Under the pieces are notes generated by a model that saw only the letters and a program-made list of their open reading frames with translations, ran no database searches and was not told where the DNA came from. The position numbers and the translations under genes are program-made. A stretch of DNA of 62,862 nt, counting the filler, from Choristocarpus tenellus KU-1152 (taxonomy: Eukaryota > Protista > Phaeophyceae): NCBI GenBank assembly GCA_964200185.2. It is 14 parts of 14 records of this genome, joined end to end, with 100 filler letters (N's around TTAATTAATTAA, not from the genome) between each part and the next. Parts side by side here need not be neighbours in the genome. Positions count along the whole stretch, not along the records: positions 12,795 to 23,668 come from CAXNAD020002657.1; positions 23,769 to 26,566 come from CAXNAD020024662.1; positions 26,667 to 29,166 come from CAXNAD020027301.1; positions 29,267 to 35,498 come from CAXNAD020008617.1; positions 35,599 to 38,299 come from CAXNAD020025517.1; positions 38,400 to 42,514 come from CAXNAD020016135.1; 8 more parts are not named here. One strand, written 5' to 3'. Below, piece by piece: positions 5,575-44,325 of the stretch. Positions within the stretch are counted from its first letter, which is position 1, and each line of letters begins with the position of its first letter.

Positions 5575-5725
5575 CCAGTGCACTAGAAGCAGCAGGATGG
5601 CCAAAGCAATAAATAACCCTAACCCTAACCCTAAACCTCAGTACTCTCACCCAGTGCACTAGAAGCAGCAGGATGGCCAAAGCAATAAATAACCCTAACC
5701 CTAACCCTAACCCTCAGTACTCTCA
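5575..5725 (+). repeat. 76-bp tandem duplication, each unit containing (AACCCT)3
   Basis: CCAGTGCACTAGAAGCAGCAGGATGGCCAAAGCAATAAAT(AACCCT)3...CAGTACTCTCA starts at 5575 and again at 5651. Confidence 0.9.
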
Positions 5726-20800: not shown

Positions 20801-23668
20801 AGAACAGAGGACTTGCCAGGTAAGGTCAAGGAAAACAACTATAGCCCTTGTAAGGGAAACAAACACATCTACCTTGAAAAAAGTACAACAAATAGCAATC
20901 ATAACTACCACCCAACATTGTGTATTCAACAACCCAAATTGAAGTGGTAACTGCTCTCTTTTTTTGGGGCACTAATAGTACAAATTGAAAAAAACGTTAC
21001 AGGTGGTGGTGGATAAAGAGGCGTGAAGATACCTCCTTTCATGCAGAACACCAACGGGTGGTGCAGGCGCAGTTATGGCCACAACACCTACACTCCTCTC
21101 CTTAACAGTCAAACCACCCTGTTCATAACACTCACTGCACCTCTAATAACGAAGAAGGAGCAAACATCTCAGGTATAGCATGGAGGCATACCATGTTACA
21201 CTCTACAACCTAAAGCTGCTAAAAGCTGGTTTGCAGTATGTTGGGCATTCATTTTGATGCTGCTCTCCAGGACTAGTTGTTCAAAGTGCAATCAACCATC
21301 ACGCACAAGATCATAACAGAGGAGAAAGACCATGCCCCAGGACCCAGTTGCTCTGAGTCCTCAGAATCACATCCTACTTAGACTCTTACCTAAAAGTCGC
21401 TGCTTGCCTCTTATCATCTCCAAATACTACCCTAACATTCCGACACAGACTTACGCCCACCGAAACTAAACCAGTACACTAGACTGAGAGCAGTACCTAG
21501 CTCTACCTAATATGAAACCTTGACCCTCTCACTTCGTCAAAAACTAACTTACAACCAAAATCTTAGAAACAATCTGGCGCAGTAAACACTTTACAACCCG
21601 CAGAGAAGCCCCCTACGATCGTATCCCATCTCAGAACAAAAAATAGCCAACAAATTCTTCGTCAAGAATGGTCCAGATGCCCACAAAAGTCAGCCAGCTC
21701 TACACGCAGCACGCATGCAACACACCAATCCAACCACACAAAACAAAGGCAAGAACTGCATATTGAGGAACCCAGAATAACTCTCCTCCATGTACACTGT
21801 TGTGCAACAATGCGGGACACCAATCTGCAGTGGTCAGTCAGCCTAGGCAAAGTAAGAGCTAACAAACATTTCCTCGGAAATACTAGGCCAGGGTTTACTC
21901 CAAGTCAGCTTCGCTTAAGTATTTCCTATTTCTCACTCTTCCTCAAACCCTGTCCCTACCATGGAACTCACCCTAAGACATAGGCTTCCACAGCCCGCTC
22001 AAGAAGAAGCGACATAGTCACACGGTTGTCCCAAGGTGAGCGAAGGCGTGACCACTTCGTGGTTGTCCCCGCCCCATTGACATTCGCACCCTTGCTACTA
22101 CTCAGGATAAATGCCTGCAGCTCCTTAATGATCTATTTATAAAAATAAACAAAAACAGAAGAGGGTGCACGTACCGCATGGGATACAATACAAATAAAAA
22201 TAAATATTTGGGATACAGAGCAAAGAGGTAATCATGCTGTTGACCAAGGTGCAAGCTTCGTTTTGCAAGTGGAGTGGGACAAGGAAAAGACAGACATTCC
22301 ACTCAAGATTCACCACAGCTAAATACTCAGAAGATAATTCATAAAATCCAGCAAGACAATCCCATCCTACAACCAATCAAGCGCCATCTATCATTCTCCT
22401 ACCTCACACACAACACGCGCATTGATTGTACACCTTGTACACCTCTTGGCACTCGCGAAAAGAACCGACAACACTGCGCCAAAGCGCCTAACAATATAAC
22501 AAAGCACCTTACAACAATTTGAACTAGATCGCTCCAAAAGAACCTAACACACTCTCCAACCTCGCCATATATTCCTTGCAGGATATAATACACAAAACTA
22601 CCAAGACCTATTTCAAAATGGAAAAAAGAATCTGCACAGCATTGCCTGAAATACCCTCCACACCTGCCATCCCTGAAAACAATCATCAATCACCTTCGAT
22701 CCAGCCTCAATCCTCTCGTCCAGCAATCCCAGCTCATCCAGAGAGCCCCCCCCCCCGCTACTTCTTCCCTCTCCCTCCTCCTCCTCCCTGCCAGAAGTAG
22801 TACGACTAATGCTCTCCTCAAGGCGATGCCGGCGAGCAGCAGCCTCCGCCCTGACCTTGATCTGTTCCTTCAATGCTCTCCTAGCCACCTTGAGCGCCAC
22901 CGCCTCCTGCAATCAAAAAAAAAAAAAATGTAAAAAAAGAAAGGCAATTTAGGATCAGACCGCTTTCATTATGCATAAATAAGGTGTACCCTCCTTCAAC
23001 AGTAGACCCCCATCGCCGTACATATCATCTCTGAGTATTGAAAGGACACAATGACAACAAGCTCTCGAGTCAAAGTATCTTAGGGTTAGGGTAGAGCCGC
23101 GTCCATTTCGGGGTCAAAATCCAACGTTGCGATTTTGTTGTAATTTGGCTATCGTATTTGTTAGGAAGTGTCAATATCTATGTTTCGGACACACCTTTCA
23201 TAGTGTGTATACATTTTACCTACTCCTAAACATTTTGGAGTAGGAAAATGTCATTAAAAAAAAACCCATGGGAAGCCAAGCCCCAAATGGACAAACAGGC
23301 CAAAACTTGTACCCTCTCTTAATAAGATACTTTCACTCTCGAGGAATTTTCGATCCCATTGTCTCACATCCTCTCCCACCCTCAACAGAGCACCGTTACC
23401 TCCTTGCCACTTTTTTGCGCCCCCCCCAAGAGGCAAAATCACTCACAACAAAAAAAACACATCACTGCAGGTACGACCAACAACACTCCCCAAATACAAC
23501 ACCCAAAGGCCCAGCACAACATTCACCCGTGCCCGATCTCACCTCTATCTCCTTGTCGATCCATGCAGCAAGCTCCACCCTCTTAGCCTCCTTAACCCCA
23601 CCCTCTCCTCCCCCTCCCACCCCAGCACCACCGTCAGATGACAGGGCCAGACGGGAAGATGTGCCCCC
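17826..23668 (-). CDS. Kinesin-4 (KIF4/FRA1-like chromokinesin) stalk and tail with a SAP domain, 5'-partial; exons 23668-23543, 22906-22694, 22132-21972, 21140-21033, 20777-20428, 19915-19650, 19067-17826
   Basis: All seven exon phases are compatible. ELAAWIDKEIEEAVALKVARRALKEQIKVRAEAA, IEAGSKIIKELQAFIL and TKWSRLRSPWDNRVTMSLLL resemble the conserved kinesin-4 stalk blocks (W-L-x-x-E-I/L-E; I-x-D-L-Q; R-W-x-x-L/I-R-S). The SAP consensus is split across an intron: LSNLESHT|VPQLKHFLRENGLKTSGVKAVLVQRL. The motor domain is not in the contig. Confidence 0.7.
23067..23338 (+). mobile_element. MITE family A (about 250-270 bp; TIR GAGT[C/G]AAAGTATCTTAGAGGGTA); copy with TTAGGG insertion in the left TIR
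   Basis: Terminal inverted repeats, internal CCTACTCC..GGAGTAGG hairpin, and about 12 copies in the window. Confidence 0.9.
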
Positions 23669-24552
23669 NNNNNNNNNNNNNNNNNNNNNNNNNNNNNNNN
23701 NNNNNNNNNNNNTTAATTAATTAANNNNNNNNNNNNNNNNNNNNNNNNNNNNNNNNNNNNNNNNNNNNATTATTTTGAATTGCTGTGAAGTACGAGCACT
23801 TAAAAAAAAAATCCTAGCACGCTGTGTAGCTTATCACAATCCTGGTGGTGTTTATGATTGATAGGGTGTTGTCACAGCATTCCGTCTCACAGGTCTTCCT
23901 GCTTCCTCTCCCTCACACCTCCATCTCCCTGAGGCCCTGTAATTCACCCTTGGCACCTCCTGCATTTTGGATTTTGAACTCCCCAACCCCTGACCCCCCA
24001 CCTCCTACGGTCACTCCCTTCATACTCCAAGTATTATGTTGATTTAGCAGCTCCCTCTAGATTTGCTCTTGTTTTTCTTAGGTCCCACCATGCAAGTTTG
24101 ATTGTTGCATCGCCCCTCATTGTTATTGCTAAGTATGCTTTTTGTGCACCCCTATGAGAGATGAAAATTCAAATGGCATCAGGTCTCAAATTTTTCTGTT
24201 GAAGTATGAGGGATTCAACCGATGGATTGGACAGTGTGATGTCTAGTTCTGATGGTATGTGTGGTGTGCCTGTTGCCCTGTCAACCATTTCTTTCGTAGT
24301 CATACTTGATACCAAGGACTTGAATGGAAAACCGATTTACCTCCCTGAACCCAGCTGAAGAACTATCTCCTCTCAACAACAACAACAACAAAATGTTCTG
24401 TGTTTTTGTTTGGGGGGTTGGGGCGGGGGGGGGGGGGGGGGGGGTGGGGTTTTTTGGGGGGGGGGGGGGGTGGGGCACCTTGTGGGGGTGTTTTTTTTGA
24501 TNNNNNNNNNNGGCGCTGGTCTCGAGAGCGTAAAGTGTTTGTTGTTGGTTTG

Positions 24553-24593
<41 letters not shown>

Positions 24594-24598
24594 CTCAG

Positions 24599-25756
24599 AT
24601 GTTCTGACAGGGGTGGTGGATGCTGCACCTTCTGGTGGTAGTCTTTTGAATGACCTTTTGGCCGGTCAGACCAGTGCAGGAGAGGATAGTATAGAGGGGT
24701 TGAAGGCTGCACAGTTCACAACCACTTCTCAGGCAAGCGAACAAAGAAGAATATAGATGTAGCTCTGTGTATTTCTGGGATGGAATACAATTCATTGATG
24801 TGTGAGATGGAAGGCATTCTATTACGGAAGGAGGTGATTGGATTGGGTTCCGGTTTCGGAAGCAGTCCTATATTTTTTTTAATATTTTGTGGAGAATTGA
24901 TTGGCACACAGTTAGGGGGTTCTTTGTTGTTGGCTTTTTTTTCCTGGTCAGTGTGCATGGTATGGAGCAAGAGGGTTGGTGTCATTATTATATTTATTGT
25001 TTTCATGCCGTAACGGCAGTCCGAGAGATGCCTGTCCAGTGATTGAAAAGGCAGCTCAAAGAAGATAATACACAATGCTTGAGAAAAAGCAGCAAGGACC
25101 CTAGTAATAAAAGTAAAGTGGTGGAATAATAAAGGAAAAAAACCCCAAGAAAGAATAAGAAAACCTTGGTGTGGAGTGTACCCGGTTGGATTTCTTAGCA
25201 GAATACCTCTGTACTCCCTGTTAAGTTCTTGGTTTCTTTTGGAGGGGTGGTGATGGAGAGCTGGAGTATTATCATTTGTGTGTGTGGTGTGTGTGCTTGT
25301 GCATTCCATTTTGCGGTGGGGTATCCGTGATGGAAGGCGTGAAGAGTAGAATGGCTTCAGTCATAGAATTTTATCTGCGATTTGATTATCGTATGATACC
25401 CCCAATCATCGTCGTTGTATTTGAAGTCAATCTTGTGTGTTTTTTTTATTTCTATTTTTTTTTCTGCGAGGCTCGTGATGCTCAGATCACTTTTTAAGAA
25501 ATAATATACTGCTACTATGTTAAGAATTTTAAGGGTTAGGGTTGTGTGTGTGGAACACAAGGGGGGACAAGAAGAAAAAAAAATGCTATTTTCAATGCTT
25601 TTTTTTTTCAGTTTCATAGGCATCCATTCCTGTGTCCCATATGTGCACAATTATGATGATAATAATGAGATTCATGTTCTATGTATGCACCACAGCACAG
25701 TGCTTACTTCTTCTACCTTCTAATAACCTTTTATAGTTTGAATACAACAGTAATTG

Positions 25757-25806
<50 letters not shown>

Positions 25807-26248
25807 CTTCCTTCTCTCCCTCCTCCCTTCNNNNNNNNNNTTTCCCACCCACGCCCCGGTCTTTCTTCTTCCACCCTCCAATAACCTTTTATATTTTGAA
25901 AACAAAAGTAATTGCCCCCCCCCCCCCCCCCTCCCTCTCCTTTCTGTCTCCTTCACTCCTTATATTTGTTACTCGAGACAGATGTTGGTGGGTACAGGAT
26001 CAGCATCGCATTTCAAAGACAAAAACGGTGCTGGAGCAATCCCCATGAACAACTTGCTGGGGCTTCCTCTGGGAGGAGAGACTGGTAATGGCCTTCAACT
26101 AGGGATTGGCGGAACTCAGAAGTTGGACATGGGTCTCGGTATGGGAACAGGGATTGCTAATAGCGGCGGAGGCGTGCGAGAAAAGGCAACTGGAAATAGT
26201 GCCCAGCTTCAGGAACTACAGCAACAGAATATCCTCTTACAACAGCAG
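24599..26248 (+). CDS. Unknown Gly/Gln-rich protein fragment; exons about 24599-24732 (GC donor) and 25982-26248
   Basis: DVLTGVVDAAPSGGSLLNDLLAGQ..FTTTSQ|gcaagc joins in phase 0 to cag|MLVGTG..AQLQELQQQNILLQQQ|gtgaga. Confidence 0.5.
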
Positions 26249-26472
26249 GTGAGATTTGGGAAGATTAGGGTTAGGGCGTGTAGTGGTCATGTGATAATTT
26301 CTGATTCCTGGTGTAGTTTGTTTCTGTGCATATTTTGTATACATTTCTGTGAACACTAACCCTTTACTCAATCATTTGTACGGGTGGATGTTGTAGTGGT
26401 ATTATAATGATTCTGGGTTGGTGAAGTGTGTAAGAAAAGAGGAAGGTGATTGGGGTTCCTGGCACACACTCC

Positions 26473-26503
<31 letters not shown>

Positions 26504-26691
26504 AAGAGAGGGGGGGAAGAAAAACCGACTCCTTATTACAAAAAAAAAAACAAAAAAATTATTTAANNNNNNNNNNNNNNNNNNNNNNNNNNNNNNNNNN
26601 NNNNNNNNNNTTAATTAATTAANNNNNNNNNNNNNNNNNNNNNNNNNNNNNNNNNNNNNNNNNNNNCCCCCCCAGGTACTTTGGGTCACAA

Positions 26692-26947
26692 GAGTGAAAG
26701 TATCTTAGAGGGTACGATTTTTTCCCTATTTGTCCATTTGGGGCTTGGCTTCTCATGGGTTTTTTTATGACATTTTCCTACTCCAAATGTTTCGGAGTAG
26801 GTAAAATGTGTATGTTATGAAAAGGTGTGTCCAGAACATGGATATTGACACTCCTAACAACTGCGATGGCCAAAATTCATCAAAATCACAACATTGGATT
26901 TTGGTCCTCAAATAGACGCGGCTCTACCTTCTAAGATACTTTGTCTC
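26692..26947 (-). mobile_element. MITE family A copy with 4-bp TSD ACAA
   Basis: ACAA|GAGTGAAAGTATCTTAGAGGG ... GATACTTTGTCTC|ACAA. Confidence 0.92.
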
Positions 26948-27732
26948 ACAAGTGCTACATAATAGTGAAGCATTTAGTATATACTATTGAAGTATTGAGT
27001 GCACCTGGCTTGTATGCCCTTCCTCATATACGCATTCAAGCTTGTGCATATGCTGCGAAAATCATTTTAAGATAATCGTAGGATCAGGCCTGAGAACCGA
27101 TCCTCTTCAGGCTTAGGTTATCGACAGGTTAGGATTTGGCATTGCTCTCACTGCTCTCACTTATCACTAGTGAATGGCCTCTGTAATTTCAGCCAGACTC
27201 AAATTTGTTGAAGTTAGAACCAGGATGTGCACTGCCATGTGGACATCATATTATTAATATATAGTGGTAGAAGGTTTTGCTTCGAAGATGTCAATGATTG
27301 CCCAGATTAACTTTGAATATTGAGGAGGAGGGTGCATGGAAACACATGAATGCCTACTGTAAGAAAGGCTGGCATGTATGTCTAATTTAACCGGCAAGAG
27401 GCATTTGCTCATCAACCTGGATGTCATGGATATTAGCCTTAGCATTATTCTCCACCTGCTTAAATTTCTTGCCTTTCCTATAGCGACTATCTTCTTCCCT
27501 TTATTTTGTCCGTTCACTGGCAAGCCAAAGTGATCCTCCTCTCTCTCCCAAATAGCTTCATCATGTCAAGACCACGGGTATTGCTGTATCCAGTACTTGC
27601 CTGTTTCCTGTGATATCTCTGGCACATAGGAAGCCTTCCTCCAGCCACAGGGCAACTCGACTCAGCTGAGAGGGCAGGACAAGTGTCACATATGACTGGG
27701 GTTTTGGCGGTGGAAAGCCATCCGACACCTGT

Positions 27733-27991
27733 GAGTGAAAGTATCTTAGAGGGTACAAATTTTGCCCTGTTTGTCCATTTGGGGCTTAGCTTCCGTTGGG
27801 GTTCGTATGAAATGTTCCTACTCGAAAAAAAATTCAGAGCAGGTAAAATGTGTATGTTATGATAAGGTGTGTCCAGAACAAGGATATTGGCACTTCCTAA
27901 CAATCACGATAGACAAAATTACATCGAAATCGCAACATTGAATTTTGACCCCCAAATGGACGCGGCTCTACCCTCTAAGATACTTTGGCTC
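27733..27991 (-). mobile_element. MITE family A copy
   Basis: Full TIRs; flanks CTGT/CCGT (4-bp TSD with one mismatch). Confidence 0.9.
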
Positions 27992-28195
27992 CCGTCGTTG
28001 GCGTTAATGGAGGTGCGAAAACGGGGGATGGGGTGAAACACAATGCACAGAGTGTTTCACCTTCTTCTGTGTGTCTTGTTCCCCTCTCTTTTTTTTCCGT
28101 CGTCTACTTCCCCTTTTTTTTCCTTTTTTTTCCTTTTTTTCATATGTAAAATGGCCAGACAATATAGCCTGCCTCTCCCTCAACCAGAGCCTTTT

Positions 28196-28534
28196 GAGTC
28201 AAAAGTATCTTGGAGGGTAGAACCACATCCATTTGGGTGCCAAAATCCAATGTTGCGATATTAGTGTAATTTTGGCAATCATATTTGTTAGGAAGTGTCA
28301 ACATCCTTGTTCCGGACATACACATGATACCTACTCCAATAAGGTACACATTTCACCTCCGAAAAATTTCAGAATAGGAAAATGCACGATACCTACTCCA
28401 AAAAGGTGTACAGTTTATCTCCTCCAAAAATATTTCAGAATAGGAAATTGTGATAAAAGACCCGTGGGAAGTCAAGTCCCAAGCGGACGAACAGGACAAA
28501 ACTCGTACCCTCTCTTAATAAGATACTTTCACTC
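28196..28534 (+). mobile_element. MITE family A copy with an internal ~62-bp tandem duplication; TSD TTTT
   Basis: GATACCTACTCCAA..CAGAATAGGAAA occurs twice (about 28326 and 28388); TIRs intact. Confidence 0.88.
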
Positions 28535-29266
28535 TTTTCTGCTGAGATATTTATTAATGAGAGAGAGGGGTGGACGACTTTGCAGTGAAAAAGCAACTTG
28601 CAACCCAGCAGGACAGTCTGTTCAATATTTCTACACAGTGAGATGTACTTTGTGCAACACTCTTGCAGCTATGCACACAAAAATATATATATATGACTGG
28701 CCATCAGGATGGGACTAGGCGTGCACTCATCTTGTTCCACATGTTTGGACACTCTCACAAATTGACTCACGTGAGTGAACCTTGCAAACTTGGGCACTCT
28801 CTGCTTCAGCTCAAAAACGTAAAGATTGTTCGGGTATCCACGTGCCCCAACGAGTACCTTTGCACAGATTGACAAGGCGGAGTAAAGAACAAGGGGGAGA
28901 AGTAGACGGCACTGACAAAGTTAGACACTGTGTAGTGACAAGCCGTTCAGTAAATTACGCTGTAATAATCCAAAGTAGTCACCGCCAGCCCATGTCCAGA
29001 GTAGGGGAGATACATCAATGTGAGAAATAATTTGAATATGCGTCGAACTTGGAGGCACTTGCCGGAGTTAGTTATGTTAACTGTGAAACTTGTCAGACTT
29101 CATATTCTCGTGTATGGGGCATATTCAAGAGATGTGTGGGATAGCTGAAGACCCAAAGCATCTGGGNNNNNNNNNNNNNNNNNNNNNNNNNNNNNNNNNN
29201 NNNNNNNNNNTTAATTAATTAANNNNNNNNNNNNNNNNNNNNNNNNNNNNNNNNNNNNNNNNNNNN

Positions 29267-29336
29267 CATCAAAATCGCAACATTGGATTTTGACCCCCAA
29301 ATGGACGCAACTCTACCCTCTAAGGTACTTTGGCTC
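29267..29336 (-). mobile_element. MITE family A, truncated by contig start
   Basis: AAAATCGCAACATTGGATTTTGACCCCCAAATGGACG..CTCTAAGGTACTTTGGCTC. Confidence 0.85.
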
Positions 29337-29636
29337 AACAGGTTCGGTAGTTCCTTCAGTTGTTCACCGTCTTTGTCTTGGTTGAAGTCAGATGTACCCC
29401 TATTGCGTAGGAAATTGTCTTGAAAGCAAGATCTTGTGTTTTGAACAACAGACATATTTGTAGAGCTCCCTTCGTTAGATTTGCAGAATATTGTTGCCTG
29501 TGCTTCAGAGTAGGCACTCGCCTGACCCTCTTGTTTCTGACTGAGGCTATTAGAAATGTGGAACAAGCTACTTCCACAGTCCTAGCAGAAAAGGTCATAG
29601 CAAAAAATACACCCCCTTTTCCCCCAACGCCTGCAG

Positions 29637-32600
29637 GAAGCTCTGGAAGGGATGACCACAGACGAGTCTCAGGTTGTGTCTGCTATCAGTATGCTGAAAG
29701 CTCTGGGCGTGGAAGCAACGAAAGACATAGAGGTTGGTCAGACAAAAGCACAGTCAAACTTAATTTCAGTCTGCTGATATAGCCGTTGTGCTGTTCCTTC
29801 CCCTTGTGCTGTTGATCTTTTCCTTGCTCTTCAACTCCTCTCAAGACCTCCAATGCATCACAAGTCACGCCAAGACTGAGGGATACAGCAAGAAGATATG
29901 GGAGCTTATCCAATTCTTTCACTTGTGCATCGCTGCATGTGCAACAATAGTGAAGGCGGTTCACATTCACCTCAGCCAACAGCCATTGTCCCCCCCTTCC
30001 CCTCTCCCAGCTACCCTACCAACAACACGTTCCCCCCACCTACGTCACAACAAGCCAGGAGCTAATGGCGTACTTCTTCAGTGGCGACGATATGGAGGCA
30101 GACACGGAAAAGGTCCCAACTTTGGCTGCATTCCGCAATTTAGGTCTCGATCCAGACAGAGAACCTGATGCCCTGAAGGTACATTGATGAACTTGAATTG
30201 GGTGGAAGGGGCATGATGAAGGAGTTGAAAGTGCATGATGCGGGGTCATAGATGGTGTGAAAATGGCCAACAGCCAGAGGTGGGGAATGAGTGACGATGT
30301 TCGGGGATTTATACTTGTGCTGATTTACAATCTTAGCAATGCATGTCAGCGCGTTTTTGAAGCAACAGAAATGAAAAATTCAAGTGTTTAAGCACTGCAT
30401 CCGTCTGTGAAAGTAGACATGATCAAACTCTATGTCTTAAGACTTGCAGCAAATGCTAATAGTAGTGCAGGTGGGTACTAGGATGCCCCTATGCCCAGGT
30501 TGCCACCAGTAGGGATTCAAAGGTACAAGAGCGTCCACGAGAACAAGGTGCTTCACGGGGATTTCATCCATGAAAAGTTCAAAACCTACTCAGGAGTTAC
30601 CATTATTTTTAATGTAGGTGTGTGCCGCATTCTTCCTTCCCTCCTCTAAAATACACCAGACTAAATGTGGCTACGTCTGCAACTCTGCAGGGAAATACTA
30701 TCTAAATCCCATACTGCCTCATTTGCTTTGCTATATACTTCGAATTTGTATGCTTGTTTCAGGTTCTGCTCACAATTATCCAGCCAGATGACGTCATTAG
30801 TGCTATTCATAGCTTTGTCATGGACAGGAAGGAGGCAAGATTACTTGACCAGGTCAGAACCTTGGCCCTCTCCTTTCCTTTCCCTACTTCAGTCAGATTT
30901 GTTTCGTTTCTGTCTTCAATAGAAAAAAGGTTGTCTTTGTTGGGACACTGCACGAGTATTAGTGTTTCTGGAGAGTTTCTAAACTGATTCAGGATCTTGA
31001 GCTATGGGGACTGGAATATACCCGCATGGCCACTACTAAATTTTAAGAGATAATCGCTTTAGGTCTGTGACCGGGCTATTTTTTTCTTTTTTAGCTGTAG
31101 TATTATGGAATTACTTCGTCAGAGAGCCTCATTGTAGGGCATTAATATTCATTTTGAGCCTTTTTTTCAATGTTATCAGGCACGAACAAAGATCCTGAGC
31201 CTTGATGAGGGCGGGGCCGGGGGGGGCTCAGGAGAGGGAGCAAGTAAGTCGAGAAGACAGAGAGAAAAGGTCATCCGTGAGAGGGAGAAGCTGTACTGGG
31301 ATACCCTTGGAAGTGTGGTTAGCGATAACATGTGGCAGGCAAGTTGAGAGGCTCAAGTGACAACTACAACAGCAAGCCAGTTGGAAGTAGAAAGAAAATA
31401 ACGTAGAGGGATGTCGATGAAGCATTTGAACATAAATCTCTGCCAAGATTCAAATGTGTGCTTCAATGGGTACTTCAATGTGTACTTCAGCGTGTAGCAG
31501 AACACACACACAGAGAGAGAGAGAGAGAGAGCCTACATCGTTGCAGGGGAATGAACTCTGCACTACCCTCTTGTGTACCCTTGCCCACACTTTAGGTGCC
31601 CAATAGCTAATGGGTGATAGCAGTGTTCGATCCGCCCCCTCATAGCTCCCACTCATCAAGCCTACGATGTGTTGTCTCTCCAGGTGTGGCGGCAACTGAG
31701 CAAGAGTTTGGAGGGGTACACTGGCTTGTTGGTAGAACGAGATCGTCGCATTAAATCGGTGTCCTCACTGCAGGCAAGGAACACAAAAATCTCCTTAAAA
31801 CCTCATTCATCGAAATGGGACTCATTCTCTCTCTGCTGAAGTCTGACCTGTGTTGGACTTGAAAGCTTTCTCCAATATTCCAGCTGCAGTTTCCTTGCCA
31901 AGTACTCAGTACAGAGTCAAAGTATCTCAGATGGTAGAGGCACGTCCATTTTGGGGCCAAAATCCAATGTTGCGATTTTGATATAATTTTGGCTATCATG
32001 TTTGTTAGGAAGTGTCAATATCCTTGTTCCGGACATATACATGATAGCTACTCCGAAACATTTCGGAATAGGAAAATGTCATAAAAACGATCCGTGGGAA
32101 GTCAAGCCCCAAAAGGACAAACAGGGCAAAACTCGTACCCTCTAAGAAACTTTCACTCTGCAGGTTTGTACCGAACTTTAGTATATGTTCTTTTTCAAGA
32201 GGATAGTTGATTATCTAGCTGGTGATCCCACATGTTTCCTCCTGCTCTGCCCCATGCGCTGGCGTTTGCTTTGCCTCTTGGTAGATATGACTGACCCAAA
32301 GTATCTGGGGGGGGGGGGAGTCTACACCAGGGTGTCCATTTGGACCAAAACCAGGAAAAGCGCACTTTCATTATCCATCCAATGTATGGAACCAAATCAC
32401 CCAAAAATAGCGATATGAAAAGATTGGCCCCAAATAGACAGCCGCCACCCCCCCCAGATACTTTGAGTCTCTGGATCATGACCCTGACCATCTGTTTGAC
32501 TTGATCACAGTATCCTCAGATCCAAAGTATATGGGGGCGGGGGGAGTCTACACCAGGGTGTCCATTTGGGTCATAACCAAGAGAAGTGCATTTACAATAT

Positions 32601-32966
32601 CCATCTGACATATGCAACTAAATCACACAAAAATCGTAACATGAAAAAAATGGCCCCTAATGGACAGCCGCCCCCCCCCCCCAAACCGTTCCAACCACCA
32701 CACCAAATAGGCGAGCCCTCCTGCAACCCCCGATCTCNNNNNNNNNNGATCTCCAAATACTTTGAACCTCACATCTATATATGCGCTCTCTAATGCAGAC
32801 CCTGATATCTTCCTCTCTGACACGATGGGTCTACGGCATTTTTTTTTCAAAGCAGAAGCAGAATGTGCGACTCAAGGAGCTCCTCAGGACATACCTGGTA
32901 TCAGCAGTAAATGAAGACCTCATAATTCCCCCGACAAAAACTATCCAGGTCGGATTATCTGGCTAG
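29637..32966 (+). CDS. DRC1: Dynein regulatory complex subunit 1 (DRC1/CCDC164), C-terminal part; exons 29637-29732, 30059-30178, 30763-30852, 31180-31338, 31684-31773, 32856-32966
   Basis: All joins are phase 0. MLKALGVE..DIEELMAYF, IIQPDDVISAIHSFV and YWDTLGSVVSDNMWQVWRQLSKSLEGYTGLLVERDRRIKSVSSLQKQNVRLKELLRTYLVSAVNEDLIIPPT match the DRC1 C-terminal (NYD-SP28-associated) domain. Two introns need GC donors. Confidence 0.9.
31914..32158 (+). mobile_element. MITE family A copy inside a DRC1 intron
   Basis: Full TIRs; flanks TACA/TGCA. Confidence 0.9.
32293..32469 (+). mobile_element. MITE family B (about 180 bp; TIR GACCCAAAGTATCT-G(n)); other copies or fragments at 12795-12870, about 15175-15335, 26667-26687, 29149-29166, 32520-32700, 35069-35250, 35435-35498, 38400-38473, 50768-50786, 56399-56537
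   Basis: GACCCAAAGTATCTGGGGG..TCTACACCAGGGTGTCCATTTGG..CCCAAAT[A/G]GACAGCCGCCACCCCCCCAGATACTTTGAGTC recurs on many contigs. Confidence 0.88.
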
Positions 32967-34165
32967 CTCCTTGGCTCCAATCGAGGGCAGGCACATGATA
33001 AGTAGGACATGCTGCAAAGTAGGTGCATGCTGCTAGGGATGTATGTGTTGCATGTCTTCTTGATATTCCTACCTAACTCAAGGCACTGTACCTACTTTGA
33101 GTGAAACCATCAAGGAGGGGAGTCGATTTTGGTCCCTTTGAACCTTGTTCAGCGTATACAATTCCCCTACCTGAAATGCGGTTAAACCCTCTTGTGAGTG
33201 TGTGGCTGTAGAGGAGAGGATTAGTTGTGAACACAATGTTAGCTGAAAGCACCCTAGGAATCTTAATATTAAACCACAGTCCCCCCATAGATGGTATCGC
33301 TCTTCCTAAAGCATGGATGTTAGATTAGTCTCTGCACCGACACACAGTGCATAAGTCAGGTACAAGACCTAGCGTTGAGAGTGGAGCGACCAATTGCATT
33401 GTGTACAGGCAAGTACCAGCGGAAGAGACATATTTAATTGACCAATGAGCAGTCGATGACGACCTTAATATCAATTCACTCACATGCAAGTTGTGCTTCC
33501 TGATATGTGCTTTGGATAGGAAATGTTAGACTCTAAATTTGTTGCAATGCTTATTGAAGTGTTCTGCACCAGACCACTTACAGACTTCGTTCTTGTCGCA
33601 TACTACAAGTGCTACTTCGAAAATCACATGCATTGCATAAGCATATACTTCAATGTCATAGGCATACGCCTTTCTATCTCTCCCAACACCTGGTAGCCCT
33701 CTATGTCACCTTAGCGGATTTGGTTTGGAGTAGTCACACTACCTACTCCAAGATATTGCCATATGGTCCCTGGGATGAAACAGGGTATTGCTATAAAGAG
33801 ATTAGTTTGCATGATTGTCTTGTTGTATCACTTGTAAGGGTCAAAAACGGACGCCGGCACCCACGTCCAGATACTTTGACCCAATAATAATATTACGGCT
33901 ATTAACACTGCCACCGACTATTCCTGAATGCTGTGTCTCCTCCCCCGAATCTTGTCCTGGTCCCACGTCAAGCCCACCTCAATCTTGGTTTAGTGTTTTT
34001 CTGGTATATGGCAACACACAGGATGGTATATGTGTACCATCCGTTACGCTTACCATGTGGAATTGGATCGCTGACCATCGAATAAACCAGATTCCTGTTG
34101 AAACATAGTATGTTGGAAAACACCCAACCTTAAAATCTCAGTCAAAAGGAAAATAAAAAGCTTCA

Positions 34166-34238
34166 GACCCGAGGCGAGACTTGAACTCGCGATCTCCTCT
34201 ACCCTAAAGAGGAATCTTACCAACTAGACCACCCGGGC
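34166..34238 (-). tRNA. tRNA-Pro(AGG)
   Basis: 73-nt cloverleaf: acceptor GCCCGGG/CTCGGGT, D-arm GTCT/AGAT, anticodon stem CCTCT/AGAGG with loop TT-AGG-GT, T-arm GCGAG-TTCAAGT-CTCGC, discriminator C, and a downstream oligo-T Pol III terminator. Confidence 0.92.
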
Positions 34239-34334
34239 TTACATGCGCTTTTGCCAAAACTCGTATAAAACACATCAACAGCAAAACATGTGAAGTGACA
34301 GTTACTTTGATCCTTCACTGCCCTCTATTATAGA

Positions 34335-34607
34335 TATTATTATGCCCTCTGACATTTTGTATATGTGCCAGGGGAAAAATTAATTAAAGCGGTTCACCTA
34401 CCCTCTATGGAGCTTGCCTTCTCTAACGTTCATGACTGCTATATCACTAAATCGGAAATGTTTTTATCGGTATGTTCATTGCTGAGAGATGAATGTCCTC
34501 CACATTTTACGACAACTGACTTTTTAAGGGATTTTCCTGATATTAGAATAGTTTTCATAGTTTTTTCCCCTGACACATGTACAAAATGTCAGAGGGCAGA
34601 ATAATAA
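34335..34607. mobile_element. Repeat family D: element bounded by ~45-bp self-complementary inverted repeats; same terminus at 34956-34998, 43313-43362, 56222-56268
   Basis: TATTATTATGCCCTCTGACATTTTG[C/T]A[G/T]ATGTG[T/C]CAGGGGAAAA at 34335-34379, with its reverse complement at 34563-34607. Confidence 0.75.
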
Positions 34608-37600
34608 AAATAGTTTACATCGGGACACCCTGAAGACACCAAGAAGTTTGGACTGGCCTACTTCTCCCGTCATTCTTATCCTATTTATTTGCAGACCACT
34701 TTCCCAATGCTATATAGCTATATCTTGGTCTGTTCAGAGTTTCAGCAGGGTATCAGTACAATTTGTATCTTCGTTTTTTGTACAAGAAATCTAAAGTTCA
34801 ACACTTAAAAAAAGTATGTACTAATACAAGATCAAACCACGTTGTATGCTATAATTATGTAAGTATATTATCAGGGGATGGTCTGTGCTGTGTTGTAAGC
34901 AATGCAGAAACTCTATTATTACGAGTTTATGTTCTTTTGTACTAAATGTGATATATATTATTTTGCCCTTTGATATTTTGCAGATGTGTCAGGGGAAAGG
35001 ACAATTCAATATCGTAAGATATTATATTTTTTCCGCCGTACAACTGACAACAAAAGCTAAGTTGTGAAGACCCAAAGTATCTGGTGGTGGGGGGGTTGTC
35101 TACACCAGGGTGCCCATTTGGGTCATAACCAGGAAAAGTGCACTTACATTATCCGTCTGACTTATGCAACCAAATCACACAAAATTCGCGACATGAAAAG
35201 ATTGACGCCAAATGGACAGCCACCCCACCCCCCCCAAATACTTTGAGGCTCAATGGGCATTATTTCACATGAAAAAATAAAAAAATAAGCAAAAAAATGA
35301 AAACGAGTGTGCTCTTTGGGCAATCTTTGCAACAAAATGTGTCATGTACATAGTGTGTATAATATATTGACCCATTGAAGACGAGAGGTACCCAGGTTTT
35401 ATCTTTTTTGCATTTTTAGTCTGTTTTTCAATCTGACCCAAAGTATCTGGGGGGGGGGGGGGGTTGTCGACCGGTGGTCCGTTTGGGTCGCCACACTGNN
35501 NNNNNNNNNNNNNNNNNNNNNNNNNNNNNNNNNNNNNNNNNNTTAATTAATTAANNNNNNNNNNNNNNNNNNNNNNNNNNNNNNNNNNNNNNNNNNNNAA
35601 AGGTTTTTTGGGCACTGTCGTGGGTGACCTTTTGTGTGGTGTGATTAATTTTTGTTGATGTTTTTGGGGGGGGGGGGGAATGTTTTGAGATGTTTTTTTC
35701 CATCTTGAAGATTTCAGTTAAGTCAAGAGTATTTATGTCAGAAATGGAAGGGTTGGGTTCAATTGTTTGTTTTCTCATGCATATGTGTTCTTATTGGTTT
35801 TCTTGCATGTCTATGCTGCTTGCACTTGTGTGCACACACATATATATATATTGGGGGGGGGGCTATTCACTTTGTGGTTTTCAAATCTGTTAAAAAAATA
35901 TTGCCCTTAAGAGTTTTTTCTTTAAAAAAGATCAGAACGGTCTTCTTGGTATCACATTTTTTATATTGTACATCAACACTGACTCCCCATTGTACTATAC
36001 TCAAAAAAGAAAAATATTGGGGTGTATGTGTATATACCAAATAAACAAGAAAGTATTGGCATTCATGGGATGGTATGACTACCTACTGTGAAAAAAACAA
36101 TGGTGGTATGAAGCATTGAGTATGTATAAATTAGTGTGTTGGTTCATGTCTGGTTCATTTGAATCTCTGATTCGGCCTCGAAATTGTCAGGTCATTTTTT
36201 TTCTTTTCATATTTTTTTGTGACTGCAGAAGTAATATATAAGATATAAAAAAGTATCTTGGTTGCATAGTATTCACTAAATGATAATAAAAAAGAATGGT
36301 GTGATGATATGATTTTAGAAATGAGTTCTTTGGAGTGAGCTGTTTTTTATTTTTATTTGCTAAGGGAGGAGAGATGGTAGTGTTTTTTTTTAATTTTTAA
36401 GGTTATCTCTCACAACCAGGACCTGGTATATAAGGCTGTATATGTACCATCCCTCGTGGCTTACTCATTTTTGAGTCCAATGCCTGAGAACATCACAAGA
36501 ATAATAATGATAATAATTCAATCAATATGCATGTATTTGTATATTTTTATTTGTAACCAATTCCTTGTGATGTGAGTCATTTACTAGTTCACAGAGATAA
36601 AACTGTCCTTGTGCCAATCAAGGGTTCATTCATAGTGGCCTTGATTCCCTTTTTAGTACTATGTTGGATCATTATGTGGATACATATCATTCTTACCAAT
36701 AAGCAAAGCATGCATGCATACACACACACATGCACACATATATAATATATAGATGCATGTGATTGGTTATAGTCTGATGCTTGTGCCATGTGTGTGTGAG
36801 GTGGTCTCTGTGGATTAGGTGAGACAATTAAGAATATATTTTTTGAACATGTTTTAAAGAAAAATATAAATGAATCGAAAGGACAATGTGAAATCGAATA
36901 CATCAAAAAGAAAATCTATGGAGTTTGTAGAATAACCACTGGCTTTTTTATTTTGCAATGCACATGATGCCTTGAATGACCACACAAAGGTATATACCAG
37001 TGAAGTAAATAGAGAAGTGAGAATATTCTTACAATATTCTTATGATATTCTTAGAAGCGGTGGAATGATATGTCAAACTATCCATCGTGAAAGATTCCAA
37101 TTCTGGTATACCTTATAGTGTCATCAGTTTATATTTATTTATGTATATTGGTGTACCTTATTGCATCATACTCCCCAATACCTGTTTGCAGGAAGATCTG
37201 ATTTTTCATTGAGATTTTTTTTTAGGAAGTGCAGGTTTGCCTGCTGATCGGCTGCACACACAGAGGTGGAAGGCGTTGCCATATCAGTATAGTTGCAATT
37301 TTTTTTTTAAATTACCTGAGTGTGATAATTAAATGTATGTATAAATAGGGTACTTTCTTTGTTGGTGGTTACCTTGAGAGGTAGTTTGTATAGATGGTGA
37401 GAAACGTACTGTACTGGGAAGGCGTTTTGCAGGTTGGCAGGTGGCAGCGGTGTAGAAAAGATACACTTGACCAAGTCGGATTTTGGTGACATTTTAGGGT
37501 ATAACCACGGAATGGGTTCTTGCAAGACCCTCACAGAAAAGAATTTAAAGCTAGTACACCATCTTGTGCATGTGTAGCCCAGTACACCCAGTGAATTGTT

Positions 37601-38108
37601 TGAGTTGATGATGAACAGAGGGAGCACTATGCACTCATTTATGTGTTGTTGTGAACCTCTTGACAGCTTCTGACATGTTCTTGTTATGAACTGTTGAGAT
37701 CTTCTGATATGTTTTTCAACCACTCCATCCCATTAACCACTTGACTTGAAAAAAAATCTATATCATGACGGTGCCTTGGTTCTTTTATGAAAGTATTTTG
37801 TATGCAATGGTACGATTGATTTCAAATTACTTGTTTGTCATTTTGTTGATTTTGATTCTTAGGGCTAGGGAGAGGATGAAAAAATAGCGCTTGTTTTCAA
37901 GAAAATATGAACTACAGAAGGAAGGTATTCTAAAATCTTCACCTTTTGTTTTGATATATTTTATTTCCTGTATTAAGAAAAGGGGTTCTTGTACCTCAAC
38001 TCTAAATGCATGTACATACTTTCAAGCTTTTTTTTCATTTTTTTTTTCATATTGTGGCAGTTTGGTGCATTGAGTAGTACTTAAAAAGCAAAAATATATA
38101 TTTGTGGT

Positions 38109-38299
38109 GAGCCAAAGTATCTTAGAGGGTAGAGCCGTGTCCATTTGGGGTTCAAAATCCAATGTTCCGATTTTGATGTTATTTTGACTTATCGTGTTTG
38201 TTAGGGTTAGGGTTAAGTGTCAATATCCTTGTTCCGAACACACCTTTTCATAACATGTACATTTTACCTACTCCGAAACGTATTGGAGGAGAAAAATGT
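38109..38299 (+). mobile_element. MITE family A copy truncated by contig end, with internal TTAGGG insertion at about 38206
   Basis: Left TIR plus internal sequence; GTTAGGGTTAGGGTTAAGTGT replaces the consensus GTTAGGAAGTGT. Confidence 0.88.
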
Positions 38300-38670
38300 N
38301 NNNNNNNNNNNNNNNNNNNNNNNNNNNNNNNNNNNNNNNNNNNTTAATTAATTAANNNNNNNNNNNNNNNNNNNNNNNNNNNNNNNNNNNNNNNNNNNNG
38401 TGAGGGCACTTTCCAGGCCAGGGCCCAAATGTAAACCCTGGTGTAGACCCCCCCCCACCAGATACTTTGAGTCTGGACCGAGTTGCTCTAACTCTGCTGG
38501 AACACCTTCACACTGCCTGCTTTGCATTGTAGTATATACAGTTGATCATGGGTGCAGAGGCACCTGCCCGTGGCTGAGGCCTTTTGTAGCTCATCATATG
38601 ATGCATATGATGATGGTGACAGTAAGAAAATCGGACTGCATGGTGATGGCTGCTACAGTGTAGGTACCGA

Positions 38671-38815
38671 TACAATGATAGTCCTGGTACCAATGCAGTA
38701 CTTGTACTACTAGTACAATGATAGTCCTGGTACCAATGTGGTACTTACACTACTAGTATGACGATAGTCCTGGTATCAATGTGGTACTTGTACTACTAGT
38801 ACGATGATGGTACCA
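38671..38815 (+). repeat. 43-bp minisatellite, about 3.3 units
   Basis: Unit TACAATGATAGTCCTGGTACCAATGYRGTACTTRYACTACTAG starts at 38671, 38714 and 38757, with a partial unit at 38800. Confidence 0.9.
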
Positions 38816-39238
38816 GTAAAATGTGACAAACTCGCCTTGCATTTGAGAGGACAAGCACTACACCTATATATACGCCATCGATATTTATTTACTACAGTAC
38901 TCTTTTCTAAAAGAGGGCCTCGTCTTTCAACCACCACAAGCACAAACCTACACATACTACCACGAGCAAAAGGATGGAGTACTCTACTAACGCTTGACGT
39001 TAGATACACGCACTTGGGTATACTAGCAAAAACAGAATTAGGTTGTGCACACAACCACAACCAACAAAGAACAAAAGAGCTGGTCCAATCCTTGAGCGAC
39101 ACACTAGTGCAGTTGAAAAAACTACGTTTGCATCAAGAAATAAGAACCTTTTGAATTGAGTGCCACTAGTACCATGAAGCTGACATGGCGTCAAGCCAAC
39201 CTCCTCTTAACACTTCAACACCACCACGACCAACTCAC

Positions 39239-40890
39239 CAACGCAGCATCCCTTCCCAATTGACGGTAAGCAACCCCATCCTCCTCATTATGTTGGTGAT
39301 TAATTCCTCCTTCATACCCGTCAGCAAGGTTTTCCTCACACTTCGAATGCTGAACACCACCATTACTCTTCCTCACAGCCTCTGTACTCGATGCACTCAA
39401 ATCATCAGCAGGTTGTCTTCTAGAGCCCCCTTCAGACTCTCCTACTACTCCACCAGGCCCTTTCTTAGACCTGTCCGTTTTTGATTGGCCTGTTGAAGGG
39501 GCACGTGACCTGTCTTTCAGCGTGCCTGTAAAAGAGAACGATTATTGTCAAAATTGTACTTCAACAACAAAGATTATTATTATTGTTTTGAATTGCAAAA
39601 AAACATAATAACTCAAATGCAATCGAGACCAGAAGTAAAGGGGGTTACTGGTACTACTAGATTGGACCGATAATTTTCTCACGCGTAGGCATAGCTGCGC
39701 TTTCCTGGAATTTTCTTGTGATACCCCATGAACTCTCAGCATAACTACGCATCTAACTTGGCATTTCGCAAGCGTGTGTCAATTCTAAAAAAACACAACC
39801 GTAATTGCACTGAAAAATTATTGGTCGATCCAAATAACTTTAATGGAATCTTAGATTCACATGGCCAACACTCGTGTAGAGCAGTACTCTTTTTTCCTTC
39901 TTTTTTTTCTCCAATATCTCCGAGTATATCTGGAATGGGAGTTTGCTTTGAATTCAGGGCAAACAGTATATATACATATACATATATATAGGCACTGATA
40001 CGCCTGAAAAAGGAGATATTTAAAATATTAAAAAAAAACTGGCATAATATTTGAAACAGGGTAGATAATTATGTTTGTTTTCATGTATTGGGGTACATAT
40101 GCATGACAGACTACACCAGCAAAACCCTTCCCCTGCATAGTCAACAAAAGTACATCTAACCCTAACCCTAACCCCAGGTTTCTTGTGTTACTTCAAAAGC
40201 TCTCTGCTTTCCAACAAAAAGAAAATCTGTATGAAACATACTACTTCAATATTTCAATATCACTACTATATGATCAATTCACTCAAAATCCTTCAATGCA
40301 ATGCAACTGAATCAATCACACAAAAAATATATATTACAGAACCCTAACCCTACATCAGCGAAACTCTCCTCCCCCAGATACAATAACGAATATCCCAACC
40401 CAACCCAACCTTAACCCCCTATAACCCTAACTGGTACTGACCCCATTCAAACCACTGCACCAGTGTTGCTAGACTTCCCTCCACTACAATCAACAATCAA
40501 GTGTACATGTCACATTCTATCATCATTTTATTCTTTTCTTCTCACCTCCAGTCCCACCTTCATACTCTTCCTTCTCAACCTTCTTGGGAGAACCGGTTGC
40601 TTTAGGGTTAGGGTACGAGGTCCCACTACGCTTGGGTTTTATAGACCTTGAAGGCGAAGGCGGTGTTGCTGCCGAGTGGGTTCGGGCAGCAGCAGCAGCA
40701 TCTCTCTTTGAATTCCCATTGCCTGATGACGGTGACCCCTTGGAATTACTTGTCTTTTTCTTCTTGATGGTTCTAGTACCAGTAGAACCATCAGTACCCC
40801 TGGAGGCTTTTTTAGTTGTGGATTTGGGTGCCTTATTGCCCAGTTGAGGTGAACGCCTTTCCATGTCAGAAGGACTCTCGGTTTTGGAGG
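39239..40890 (-). CDS. Unknown Lys/Ser-rich low-complexity protein; exons about 40890-40546 and 39525-39239
   Basis: Open frame MERRSPQLGNKAPKSTTKK..KKVEKEEYEG joins in phase 1 to cag|GTLKDRSRAP..GRDAAL|gtgagt. The 5' boundary is uncertain. Confidence 0.5.
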
Positions 40891-41764
40891 GGCTTTGGAA
40901 GGCATTTGCAAGGGAAGGGTTGGGGAGAGGAAGAGGATTGGATTAGCCCATGTATCGAGACAAGAAAGAGGCACAGGGGAAAAGGTATACCTTTGTTGGG
41001 TGGCTTAATAAAAAACCCCATAATACCCCCGGAACATTATGTTAGGAGACACATATACTGTAGTTACAAAGTCAACAGCTGACATATCAAAAATACACAT
41101 CGAAATAAAAACAATAAAAGTAATCAGGCAAGCTGACATTAGGACTGACCACTGTCGTGCAGGGAAACCCTAAGTAACACCAAGGGTATACCCCGCAATG
41201 TCAACACCGTCAACACCATACGACTCCCCATTTCACTTCACCTAGTGACAAGAAAATAAATAAATAAATAAATAATAATAATAAGACGGTCACAGTATAC
41301 CAAACTCATTTGGAGCATAAAAACTACAAGAATTTTGCCACAGAGCGCTCTGTGACGCGTACCTGGAAGCACCTGCTAACGGTAACCTCTGTATCTGTTT
41401 GCATGTATGCAGACCATCACAGCGTGAGAACTAGTCTACAACAGGTACAACCCATAGTACCACTTCAAGGCACTATTCTCAGACAAAGGGACCGCAGACA
41501 CGGTCCCTGCCGTTACCTCTGGTTCACATACACTAACACAACAACGCTCTGTCATGATTGGGGGGGGGGGGGGGGAGGGGGTGGGTGGGTATAGCAGCGC
41601 TCAAAGCGTTCATCTCCCCTACTCCTCCACGAGGCAAGTAATACCCCTGAACAATACATCGGACCGTTGGTTTCCAACCCTAACCCTGCAACACGTGCGT
41701 TTGCACGCAGAGAGATTTCAGTCTGTCCTTCCTGACACCCAAGACATGAACAGCCAACCGAGTC

Positions 41765-42038
41765 GAGCCAAAGCATCTTAGGGTTAGGGTTAGGGTAGAG
41801 CCGCGTCCGTTTGGGGGGCCAAAATCCAATGTTGCGATTTTGATGTAGTTTTGGCTATCGTGTTTGCTAGGAGATGCCAATATCCTTGTTCCGGACACAC
41901 CTTTCCATAACGCATATATTTTACCAACTCTGAAACGTTTCGGAGTTGGTAAATGTCATTAAAAAAACCCCATGGGAAGCCAAGCCCCAAATGGACAAAC
42001 AGGAAAAAAAACTCGTACCCTCTAAAATACTTTCACTC
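41765..42038 (+). mobile_element. MITE family A copy with (TTAGGG)3 in the left TIR; TSD AACC
   Basis: AACC|GAGTC-GAGCCAAAGCATCTTAGGGTTAGGGTTAGGGTAGAG ... TACTTTCACTC|AACC. Confidence 0.9.
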
Positions 42039-44077: not shown

Positions 44078-44325
44078 GAGTGAAAGTATCTTAGAGGGTG
44101 CGAGTTTTGCCCTGTTTGTCCGTTTGGGGCTTGACTTCCCACGGGTTTCTTAATTACATTTTCCTACTCGGAATAGGTAAAATGTATACTTTATGAAACG
44201 GTGTATCCGGAGCAAGGATATTGACACTTCCTAACAAACACAATAGCCAAAACTACATCAAAATCGCAACATTGGATTTCGACCCTCATTTCGACGCGGT
44301 CGTACCCTCTAAGATACTTTGACTC
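44078..44325 (-). mobile_element. MITE family A copy; flanking direct repeat ATT
   Basis: ATT|GAGTGAAAGTATC ... GATACTTTGACTC|ATT. Confidence 0.9.

What the first reader, a model, noticed from the sequence alone, without database searches (positions are those of the whole stretch)
23079..41796. Telomeric TTAGGG inserted in register into individual MITE copies: footprint of telomerase-templated repair
Seen: the MITE-A copies act as a natural alignment. The consensus TIR TCTTAG|AGGGTAGAG becomes TCTTAG-GGTT-AGGGTAGAG at 23079 (+4 nt) and TCTTAG-GGTTAGGGTT-AGGGTAGAG at 41778 (+10 nt). The internal GTTAGG|AAGTGT becomes GTTAGG-GTTAGGGTT-AAGTGT at 38200 (+9 nt). Each insert continues the TTAGGG register from a TTAG or GTTAGG 3' seed. 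The lengths are not multiples of 6, and GGTT is absent from the adjacent consensus, so simple slippage does not explain the TIR cases. The 23067 copy belongs to a subfamily with a TCTTAA insertion in the right TIR, shared with the 28196 copy that has no telomeric insert, while the 41765 copy lacks it; this suggests independent events. Established: telomerase extends short telomere-like 3' ends, and short interstitial telomeric sequences in vertebrates are attributed to insertion during double-strand break repair. Inference: here this is a frequent genome-wide mutational process (3 of about 12 copies), possibly favoured at transposase-cut TIRs.
Basis: partly seen in the sequence, partly recalled or inferred. 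Interest (0 to 1): 0.8.

Follow-up and report, generated by a model that had tools for sequence, protein, structure and literature searches.

The report
Telomere-repeat micro-inserts pepper seaweed genome
Three copies of a small jumping-gene relic in a brown seaweed carry 4 to 10 extra bases of chromosome-end repeat, and short perfect runs of that repeat occur about every 2 kb in this sample of the genome, likely because telomerase patches broken DNA here far more often than in mammals, although two of the three inserts may trace to one old event.

Summary
All three inserts are there as described (+4 nt at 23084, +9 at 38206, +10 at 41782), on three separate scaffolds of the brown alga Choristocarpus tenellus. 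The larger fact is window-wide: 27 perfect TTAGGG-register tracts of 12-25 nt in 61.5 kb (null 0.03-0.3; same-letter hexamers 0-1), 24 of them outside this MITE. None is an isolated worn copy, so they look young. The process is specific to the telomere repeat, and telomerase fill-in during end-joining is the likeliest cause (about 0.55, inferred, not shown). The +4 form is a common family variant in the run contigs (57 contigs against 88 plain in one run), and +10 is that form plus one unit. An AG loss plus one hexamer duplication makes +4 in two steps. The TCTTAA 'subfamily' conflicts with the copy tree. Nothing supports transposase cutting. The tree leans towards separate origins of the two TIR inserts but does not reject one origin (AU p=0.051). 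The mechanism is known from vertebrates; new are the lineage, the tiny size and a density roughly 700-1100 times human by a similar criterion.

The parts
23067..23338 (+). MITE-A copy with the +4 left-TIR form and the TCTTAA right-TIR insert
23080..23092 (+). 13-nt perfect TTAGGG tract; inserted bases 23084-23087
   Evidence: same form in 10-23 contigs per run bridged, plus 22-34 clipped in X1 and X2
23317..23322 (+). non-telomeric 6-nt insert in the right TIR, forming a small quasi-palindrome at almost the same offset as the left-TIR inserts
38109..38299 (+). MITE-A copy cut by a scaffold end; plain left TIR, internal +9 insert
38200..38215 (+). 16-nt perfect TTAGGG tract; inserted bases 38206-38214
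41765..42038 (+). MITE-A copy with the +10 left-TIR form
41778..41796 (+). 19-nt perfect TTAGGG tract; inserted bases 41782-41791; equals the +4 form plus one hexamer
28196..28534 (+). MITE-A copy without telomeric insert; carries the TCTTAA insert at 28513-28518
26692..26947 (-). MITE-A copy, empty at all three sites; exact 4-bp flanking repeat
27733..27991 (-). MITE-A copy, empty; weak tree neighbour of 41765
29267..29336 (-). partial MITE-A copy, plain left TIR
31914..32158 (+). MITE-A copy, empty; tree neighbour of 28196
44078..44325 (-). MITE-A copy, empty
47510..47807 (.). two partial MITE-A copies back to back, no telomeric insert
59907..60164 (-). MITE-A copy, empty; shares 5 derived substitutions with 23067
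5083..5714 (-). cluster of 4 perfect telomeric tracts outside MITE-A (two lie in a 76-bp tandem duplication)
9891..10285 (-). cluster of 5 perfect telomeric tracts outside MITE-A
40156..41687 (.). 4 perfect telomeric tracts outside MITE-A (40156, 40340, 40602, 41676), both strands
60440..61105 (.). 4 perfect telomeric tracts outside MITE-A, both strands

Best explanation
This sample of a brown-algal genome carries a short perfect telomere-repeat tract about every 2.3 kb, three of them as inserts in old MITE copies, and they likely arise when telomerase extends a broken DNA end that finishes in a telomere-like seed before the ends are rejoined. Steps: (1) shown: each MITE insert follows a 4-6 nt seed and continues its register; (2) inferred: a break or nick exposes the seed as a 3' end; (3) inferred: telomerase adds about one or two repeats; (4) inferred: the new end anneals to the far end by microhomology (AGGGT at the TIR site, a single A at the internal site) and is ligated. 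At the TIR site a seed on the left and a 5-nt match on the right make +4 the smallest product, which would explain why this exact form is common and why +10 is the next step. Whether the many +4 copies are repeated events or one event spread by transposition and gene conversion is open (about 55:45). The MITE is a recorder of the process, not its cause.
For: Sequence specificity: 27 tracts against 0-1 for nine same-letter hexamers and 0.03-0.32 in Markov nulls. Jump in the length spectrum: runs of 6-8 nt are at null level (83, 19, 6 against 84-99, 19-22, 4-6), runs of 12 nt or more are 27 against 0-0.12. Lengths off the hexamer ladder: 12 of 27 tracts have length mod 6 of 2-5, against 13 of 115 short seeds, p=2e-4; 17 of 27 are 15 nt or longer, against 7 of 43 other hexamer tracts. 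The -2 intermediate of the slippage route is not among the six best-supported loose-end places in X1 or X2 and has no gap row, while +4 has both. Youth: 0 isolated imperfect tracts beside 23 perfect loci, P=0.002 at MITE-level divergence and 0.05 at 4%. The tree puts 23067 with insert-free 59907 (UFBoot 78; 5 shared changes; 1 shared with 41765). In-register seeds are the vertebrate signature (PMC2246262 passages; PMC7215372 section 2.5). Ectocarpus telomeres are TTAGGG (10.1101/2024.05.11.593484 passages).
Against: No direct telomerase footprint: no bias in start or end phase against short seeds (p=0.24 and 0.33) and no shared flank that could be read-through of telomerase RNA. One clade for 23067+41765 is not rejected (AU p=0.051, KH 0.074). 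+4 to +10 is one ordinary duplication and plain to +4 two slippage steps. The non-telomeric TCTTAA insert is also homoplastic, so copies probably exchange sequence, which could spread +4 without new events. In X3, 4 contigs of mixed consensus clip where the -2 form would. Longer seeds slip more readily, which weakens the mod-6 test. The telomere motif, TERT and telomerase RNA of this species were not tested.
Confidence: 0.55

Rival explanations
1. Biased slippage: chance TTAGGG seeds are duplicated by replication slippage much more often than other hexamers, for example because a telomere-binding protein stalls forks there. The TIR forms come from one AG loss followed by hexamer duplications.
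For: Plain to +4 in two slippage-type steps, +4 to +10 in one. No tract phase bias. 15 of 27 tract lengths are 0 or 1 mod 6. Slippage would also keep tracts perfect.
Against: +9 needs three steps. 12 of 27 lengths are off the ladder. The -2 intermediate is scarce against +4. A single 6-7 nt unit is a poor slippage substrate (established knowledge, recalled). Same-letter hexamers do not expand.
Confidence: 0.2
2. Templated capture without telomerase: end-joining or synthesis-dependent repair copies a few bases from telomeric DNA, telomeric RNA or one of the many existing tracts, primed by the same short seed.
For: It gives the same in-register, off-ladder inserts. Donor tracts are abundant, and tracts cluster (18 of 27 have a neighbour within 500 bp, null 9.2, p=0.005), which would fit local copying. 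The quasi-palindromic TCTTAA insert suggests template switching happens in this family.
Against: Other abundant simple repeats are not seen as inserts in the MITE alignment. Captured tracts should sometimes bring donor flank; apart from one tandem duplication no tract flanks match each other outside MITE-A.
Confidence: 0.15
3. Selection: two-unit TTAGGG motifs are kept as protein-binding sites (like plant telo-boxes, recalled), so they are common and unworn without a high insertion rate.
For: No worn tracts; sharp rise at 12 nt, two units; clustering.
Against: Does not say how 4-10 nt appear at once inside old MITE copies. No consistent strand bias at cluster level (10 of 17, p=0.63).
Confidence: 0.07
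4. Assembly artefact.
For: Fragmented draft; the +9 and +10 inserts were not confirmed outside the window.
Against: 96% of sampled words of 13800-23660 are in run X1; the +4 form is in dozens of independently assembled contigs with different flanks in three runs.
Confidence: 0.03

Closest known systems
Short interstitial telomeric sequences (s-ITS) of primates, rodents and horse, inserted at double-strand breaks (PMC2246262 passages; PMC7215372 passages and section 2.5)
   Same: Telomeric repeat appears at an empty site, in register with bases at the break. Reading the insertion off a repeat-family consensus was already done for primate ITS (PMC2246262, Table 1 footnote).
   Different: Stramenopile host. 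Inserts of 4-10 nt, below the 4-unit cut-off used there. 3-5 loci of about 4 units in 61.5 kb against 229 in the human genome. One identical product recurs at one site of a repeat family. No target duplication or random filler in these three.
TERC-ITS (PMC8537989 abstract; PMC2246262 passages)
   Same: Same proposed enzyme and pathway.
   Different: No telomerase-RNA-derived flank found or testable; no brown-algal telomerase RNA was named in the passages searched in PMC8287931.
Ordinary hexanucleotide microsatellites; AACCCT is among the common hexamers in several fish genomes (PMC8186053 passages)
   Same: Short perfect tandem hexamers dispersed through the genome; +4 to +10 is a normal one-unit gain.
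   Different: One motif makes 27 of 70 tracts, tracts are longer than other hexamer tracts and often off the unit ladder.
Non-autonomous Sola-like DNA transposons (GAG termini, 4-bp target duplication; recalled, the source paper was not held)
   Same: MITE-A begins and ends with GAG and has a 4-bp flanking repeat in some copies.
   Different: No transposase was identified in the window; only 2 of 8 full copies have an exact 4-bp repeat.

Membership tests
Short ITS inserted at breaks (vertebrate type) | Tract is the organism's own telomere repeat | not testable with these tools
   No genome held; TTAGGG is reported for Ectocarpus only
Short ITS inserted at breaks (vertebrate type) | An empty homologous site exists | tested here: met
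   9 of 11 left TIRs and 9 of 10 internal sites are empty; no empty paralogue found for the 24 tracts outside MITE-A
Short ITS inserted at breaks (vertebrate type) | Bases at the 3' side of the break in register with the insert | tested here: met
   3 of 3 inserts, seeds of 4, 4 and 6 nt, at two distinct sites
Short ITS inserted at breaks (vertebrate type) | Inserted in one step, not by slippage | tested here: inconclusive
   +9 needs three steps otherwise; +4 needs two and +10 one more
Short ITS inserted at breaks (vertebrate type) | At least four repeat units (working cut-off of PMC7215372) | tested here: not met
   The three tracts are 13, 16 and 19 nt; 5 other loci reach 24 nt with at most 3 mismatches, 2 of them marginally. 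The paper calls the cut-off arbitrary
TERC-ITS | Flanking fragment copied from telomerase RNA | not testable with these tools
   RNA sequence unknown; no 3-nt flank-plus-junction shared by more than 2 of 27 tracts
Slippage microsatellite | Growth by whole units from pre-existing units, not restricted to one motif | tested here: not met
   Motif-specific; 12 of 27 lengths off the ladder, p=2e-4; +9 not a unit multiple. Met for the single step +4 to +10
Sola-like non-autonomous transposon (recalled) | GAG termini | tested here: met
   Both ends of 8 of 8 full copies
Sola-like non-autonomous transposon (recalled) | 4-bp target-site duplication | tested here: inconclusive
   Exact in 2 of 8, 3 of 4 bases in 2 of 8, absent in 4 of 8
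Sola-like non-autonomous transposon (recalled) | Matching autonomous element with Sola transposase | not tested
   No genome held; window ORFs were not scanned against protein families

The most novel reading that the evidence does not exclude
Telomerase is an ongoing, genome-wide mutagen in this alga: it patches breaks hundreds of times per megabase, and at a repeat site with a seed on one side and a matching microhomology on the other it has made the same 4-nt insert independently in hundreds of copies, at a per-site rate near that of point substitution. The MITE family would then be a natural reporter with thousands of replicates for reading telomerase register, processivity and end-joining rules in a stramenopile.
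Probability: 0.3. Interest if true: 0.75.

Novelty: new variant of a known kind. Interest (0 to 1): 0.5.

Why it matters
In vertebrates telomeric insertion at breaks is rare (229 human loci of four units or more). Here the telomere motif is the dominant hexamer repeat, the tracts look young, and a family with thousands of copies records empty and filled states side by side. If telomerase is the source, this lineage restrains it poorly at breaks, and the question of how often telomerase takes part in ordinary end-joining becomes countable in one genome. I found no report of this for brown algae in the searches; supplements of the brown-algal genome preprint were not seen and could mention it.

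Tried and rejected
Their summed depths are not copy numbers, their tables are cut (35 indel rows hidden, 104 loose-end rows), and they gave no row for the internal site. No RNA holder was listed. The TIR pattern found nothing in metagenome or prokaryote collections. A search for other brown-algal DNA as a control returned only distant loci, best 75% identity, and was not used, so whether the density is special to this species is unknown. Tract phase and strand against local skew (19 of 27, p=0.052; 10 of 17 clusters) gave nothing. The MITE-B alignment of 11 rough pieces shows no telomeric insert. The first try at the +9 route used a truncated empty allele and was redone. Papers: no statement on brown-algal TERT or telomerase RNA was found; PMC12699852 passages had nothing on algae. 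Rejected: transposase cleavage as trigger (site 17 nt from the end, no MITE enrichment); TCTTAA as subfamily marker; a telomere-fusion origin (tracts are short, dispersed and have empty paralogues). The lack of substitutions listed within the tract was not used, because that table also omits known differences near alignment ends.
Full report
Setting. The window is 17 stretches of real sequence (61,532 bases), most of them short scaffolds joined by N spacers. An exon of a UDP-sulfoquinovose synthase gene on the first scaffold is 100% identical to a protein labelled Choristocarpus tenellus on a contig of 4,839 bases, the length of that scaffold. The host is therefore a brown alga. The three copies of the finding lie on three different scaffolds. 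No whole genome was held.

The observation. Twelve MITE-A copies, 8 full (245-339 nt) and 4 partial, align at 74-93% identity, each 6-14% from the column majority. The three inserts are exactly as written: +4 at 23084-23087, +9 at 38206-38214, +10 at 41782-41791. They occur in 2 of 11 left TIRs, 1 of 10 internal sites and 0 of 9 right TIRs, and are 3 of the 7 insertions of 4 nt or more. The element has GAG termini and in some copies a 4-bp flanking repeat, which recalls Sola transposons (from memory; one search did not hold the paper).

The wider pattern. The window has 27 perfect TTAGGG-register tracts of 12-25 nt, out of 70 period-6 tracts of that size. The next motif has 6, nine same-letter motif classes have 0-1, and Markov nulls give 0.03-0.32. 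Only 3 of the 27 are in MITE-A, which covers 4.4% of bases (p=0.11). Runs of 6-8 nt are at null level, runs of 9-11 nt are slightly above it (4, 1, 2 against about 1, 0.3, 0.1), and the excess sets in at 12 nt. Beside 23 perfect loci there is no isolated imperfect one; simulation gives P=0.002 if tracts were as diverged as the MITE copies and 0.05 at 4%. So the tracts are young or are kept perfect. Tracts cluster (18 of 27 within 500 bp of another, null 9.2).

The family beyond the window. Three runs of one study hold the window sequence; all are contigs and may be its source. On the 23067 copy 20,036, 14,910 and 3,337 contigs were laid, against a unique-flank depth of 16.8 and 8.0 in X1 and X2: the family is very large. 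On the 41765 TIR the +4 form appears as a 6-nt gap in 23, 22 and 10 contigs, and as a clip at 41784 preceded by the TIR start in 34 and 22 contigs of X1 and X2. The plain form clips at 41792 in 88, 59 and 28 contigs. Bridged depth of +4 over plain is 0.045, 0.051 and 0.108; contig counts give higher shares because plain copies collapse. Depth is not copy number, but +4 is clearly a common variant, of the order of hundreds of copies. The listed +4-type pieces differ from 41765 at 3-7 letters in about 62, so they are not one near-identical burst. Some pieces have other net lengths, but the place and letters of their gaps are not shown. The -2 form is not among the six best-supported loose-end places in X1 or X2 and has no gap row; 4 contigs of mixed consensus clip there in X3.

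One event or several. The +9 insert takes three steps and is a separate event at another site. On a tree of 9 of the 12 copies (three short partials left out, insert columns dropped), 23067 groups with insert-free 59907 (UFBoot 78, 5 shared changes) and 41765 weakly with insert-free 27733 (45, 4 shared); 23067 and 41765 share 1 change. Forcing them together costs 9.9 log units, AU p=0.051: a lean, not a rejection. The TCTTAA insert does not mark a subfamily: 28196 groups with 31914 (82), which lacks it. A non-telomeric insert that is also homoplastic suggests exchange between copies, which could equally have spread +4. So the window records two or three events, and the genome either a hotspot or an old variant.

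Mechanism. A motif-specific process that starts from seeds of 4-6 nt, continues their register and gives off-ladder lengths (12 of 27 against 13 of 115, p=2e-4) is what telomerase fill-in followed by end-joining predicts, and matches the vertebrate signature (PMC2246262 passages; PMC7215372 section 2.5: 31 of 40 horse loci in register). At the TIR site the far end begins with five bases that match the repeat, so +4 is the smallest and most stable product; that would make recurrence natural. All enzyme steps are inferred. Phase of tract ends shows no bias and no shared flank points to telomerase RNA. TTAGGG telomeres are documented for Ectocarpus (10.1101/2024.05.11.593484 passages), not tested for this species. 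Biased slippage (0.2) and templated capture from other telomeric sequence (0.15) remain. Transposase cutting has no support.

Novelty. The mechanism and even the use of a repeat consensus are in print for mammals. Four searches (listings, plus passages of 10.1101/2024.02.19.579948) found no report for brown algae; that preprint's supplements were not seen. AACCCT is a common hexamer in several fish genomes (PMC8186053 passages), so the motif's dispersal is not unique. Earlier AI notes of this scan describe telomeric inserts in other genomes (unchecked), none in this genome or like this MITE. Verdict: real, a new variant of a known kind, most interesting for its density and testability; interest 0.5.

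Noticed in passing
window 23317-23322 and 28513-28518: The same non-telomeric 6-nt insert in the right TIR makes a small quasi-palindrome at nearly the same offset as the left-TIR inserts, in two copies of different lineages; some run contigs appear to carry it too (piece lengths). Fold-back synthesis or gene conversion.
   Followed up: partly
window 40602-40614: A perfect 13-nt telomeric tract lies inside a 139-codon open frame on the minus strand (40523-40942) that looks like a low-complexity coding exon; it reads Pro-Asn-Pro and may be an in-frame insert.
   Followed up: no
window 60440-60615: G-strand tracts followed about 75 bases later by C-strand tracts with degenerate units between: a head-to-head arrangement.
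   Followed up: no
window 9891-10285 and 5083-5714: Tight same-strand clusters of telomeric tracts; two lie in a 76-bp tandem duplication and differ by one substitution.
   Followed up: partly
window 32293-32465, 35069-35245, 15165-15335, 46183-46358, 56399-56537 and others: A second MITE family (about 170 nt) shares the AAAGTATCT terminal core with MITE-A but follows it with a G run; no telomeric insert seen in 11 rough pieces.
   Followed up: partly
window 47510-47807: One MITE-A copy appears inserted into another, just downstream of the internal seed site.
   Followed up: no
window 41755-41769 and 42039-42042: The 41765 copy has a doubled 5-nt terminus, with a 4-bp repeat outside it that matches the right flank.
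   Followed up: no
window 1743-3123: Intron-rich UDP-sulfoquinovose synthase (SQD1) gene; used to name the organism.
   Followed up: yes
window 50831-53598 (-) and 17826-19196 (-): Long open frames that look like a multi-repeat Myb protein and a SAP-domain protein (motifs recalled, not scanned).
   Followed up: no
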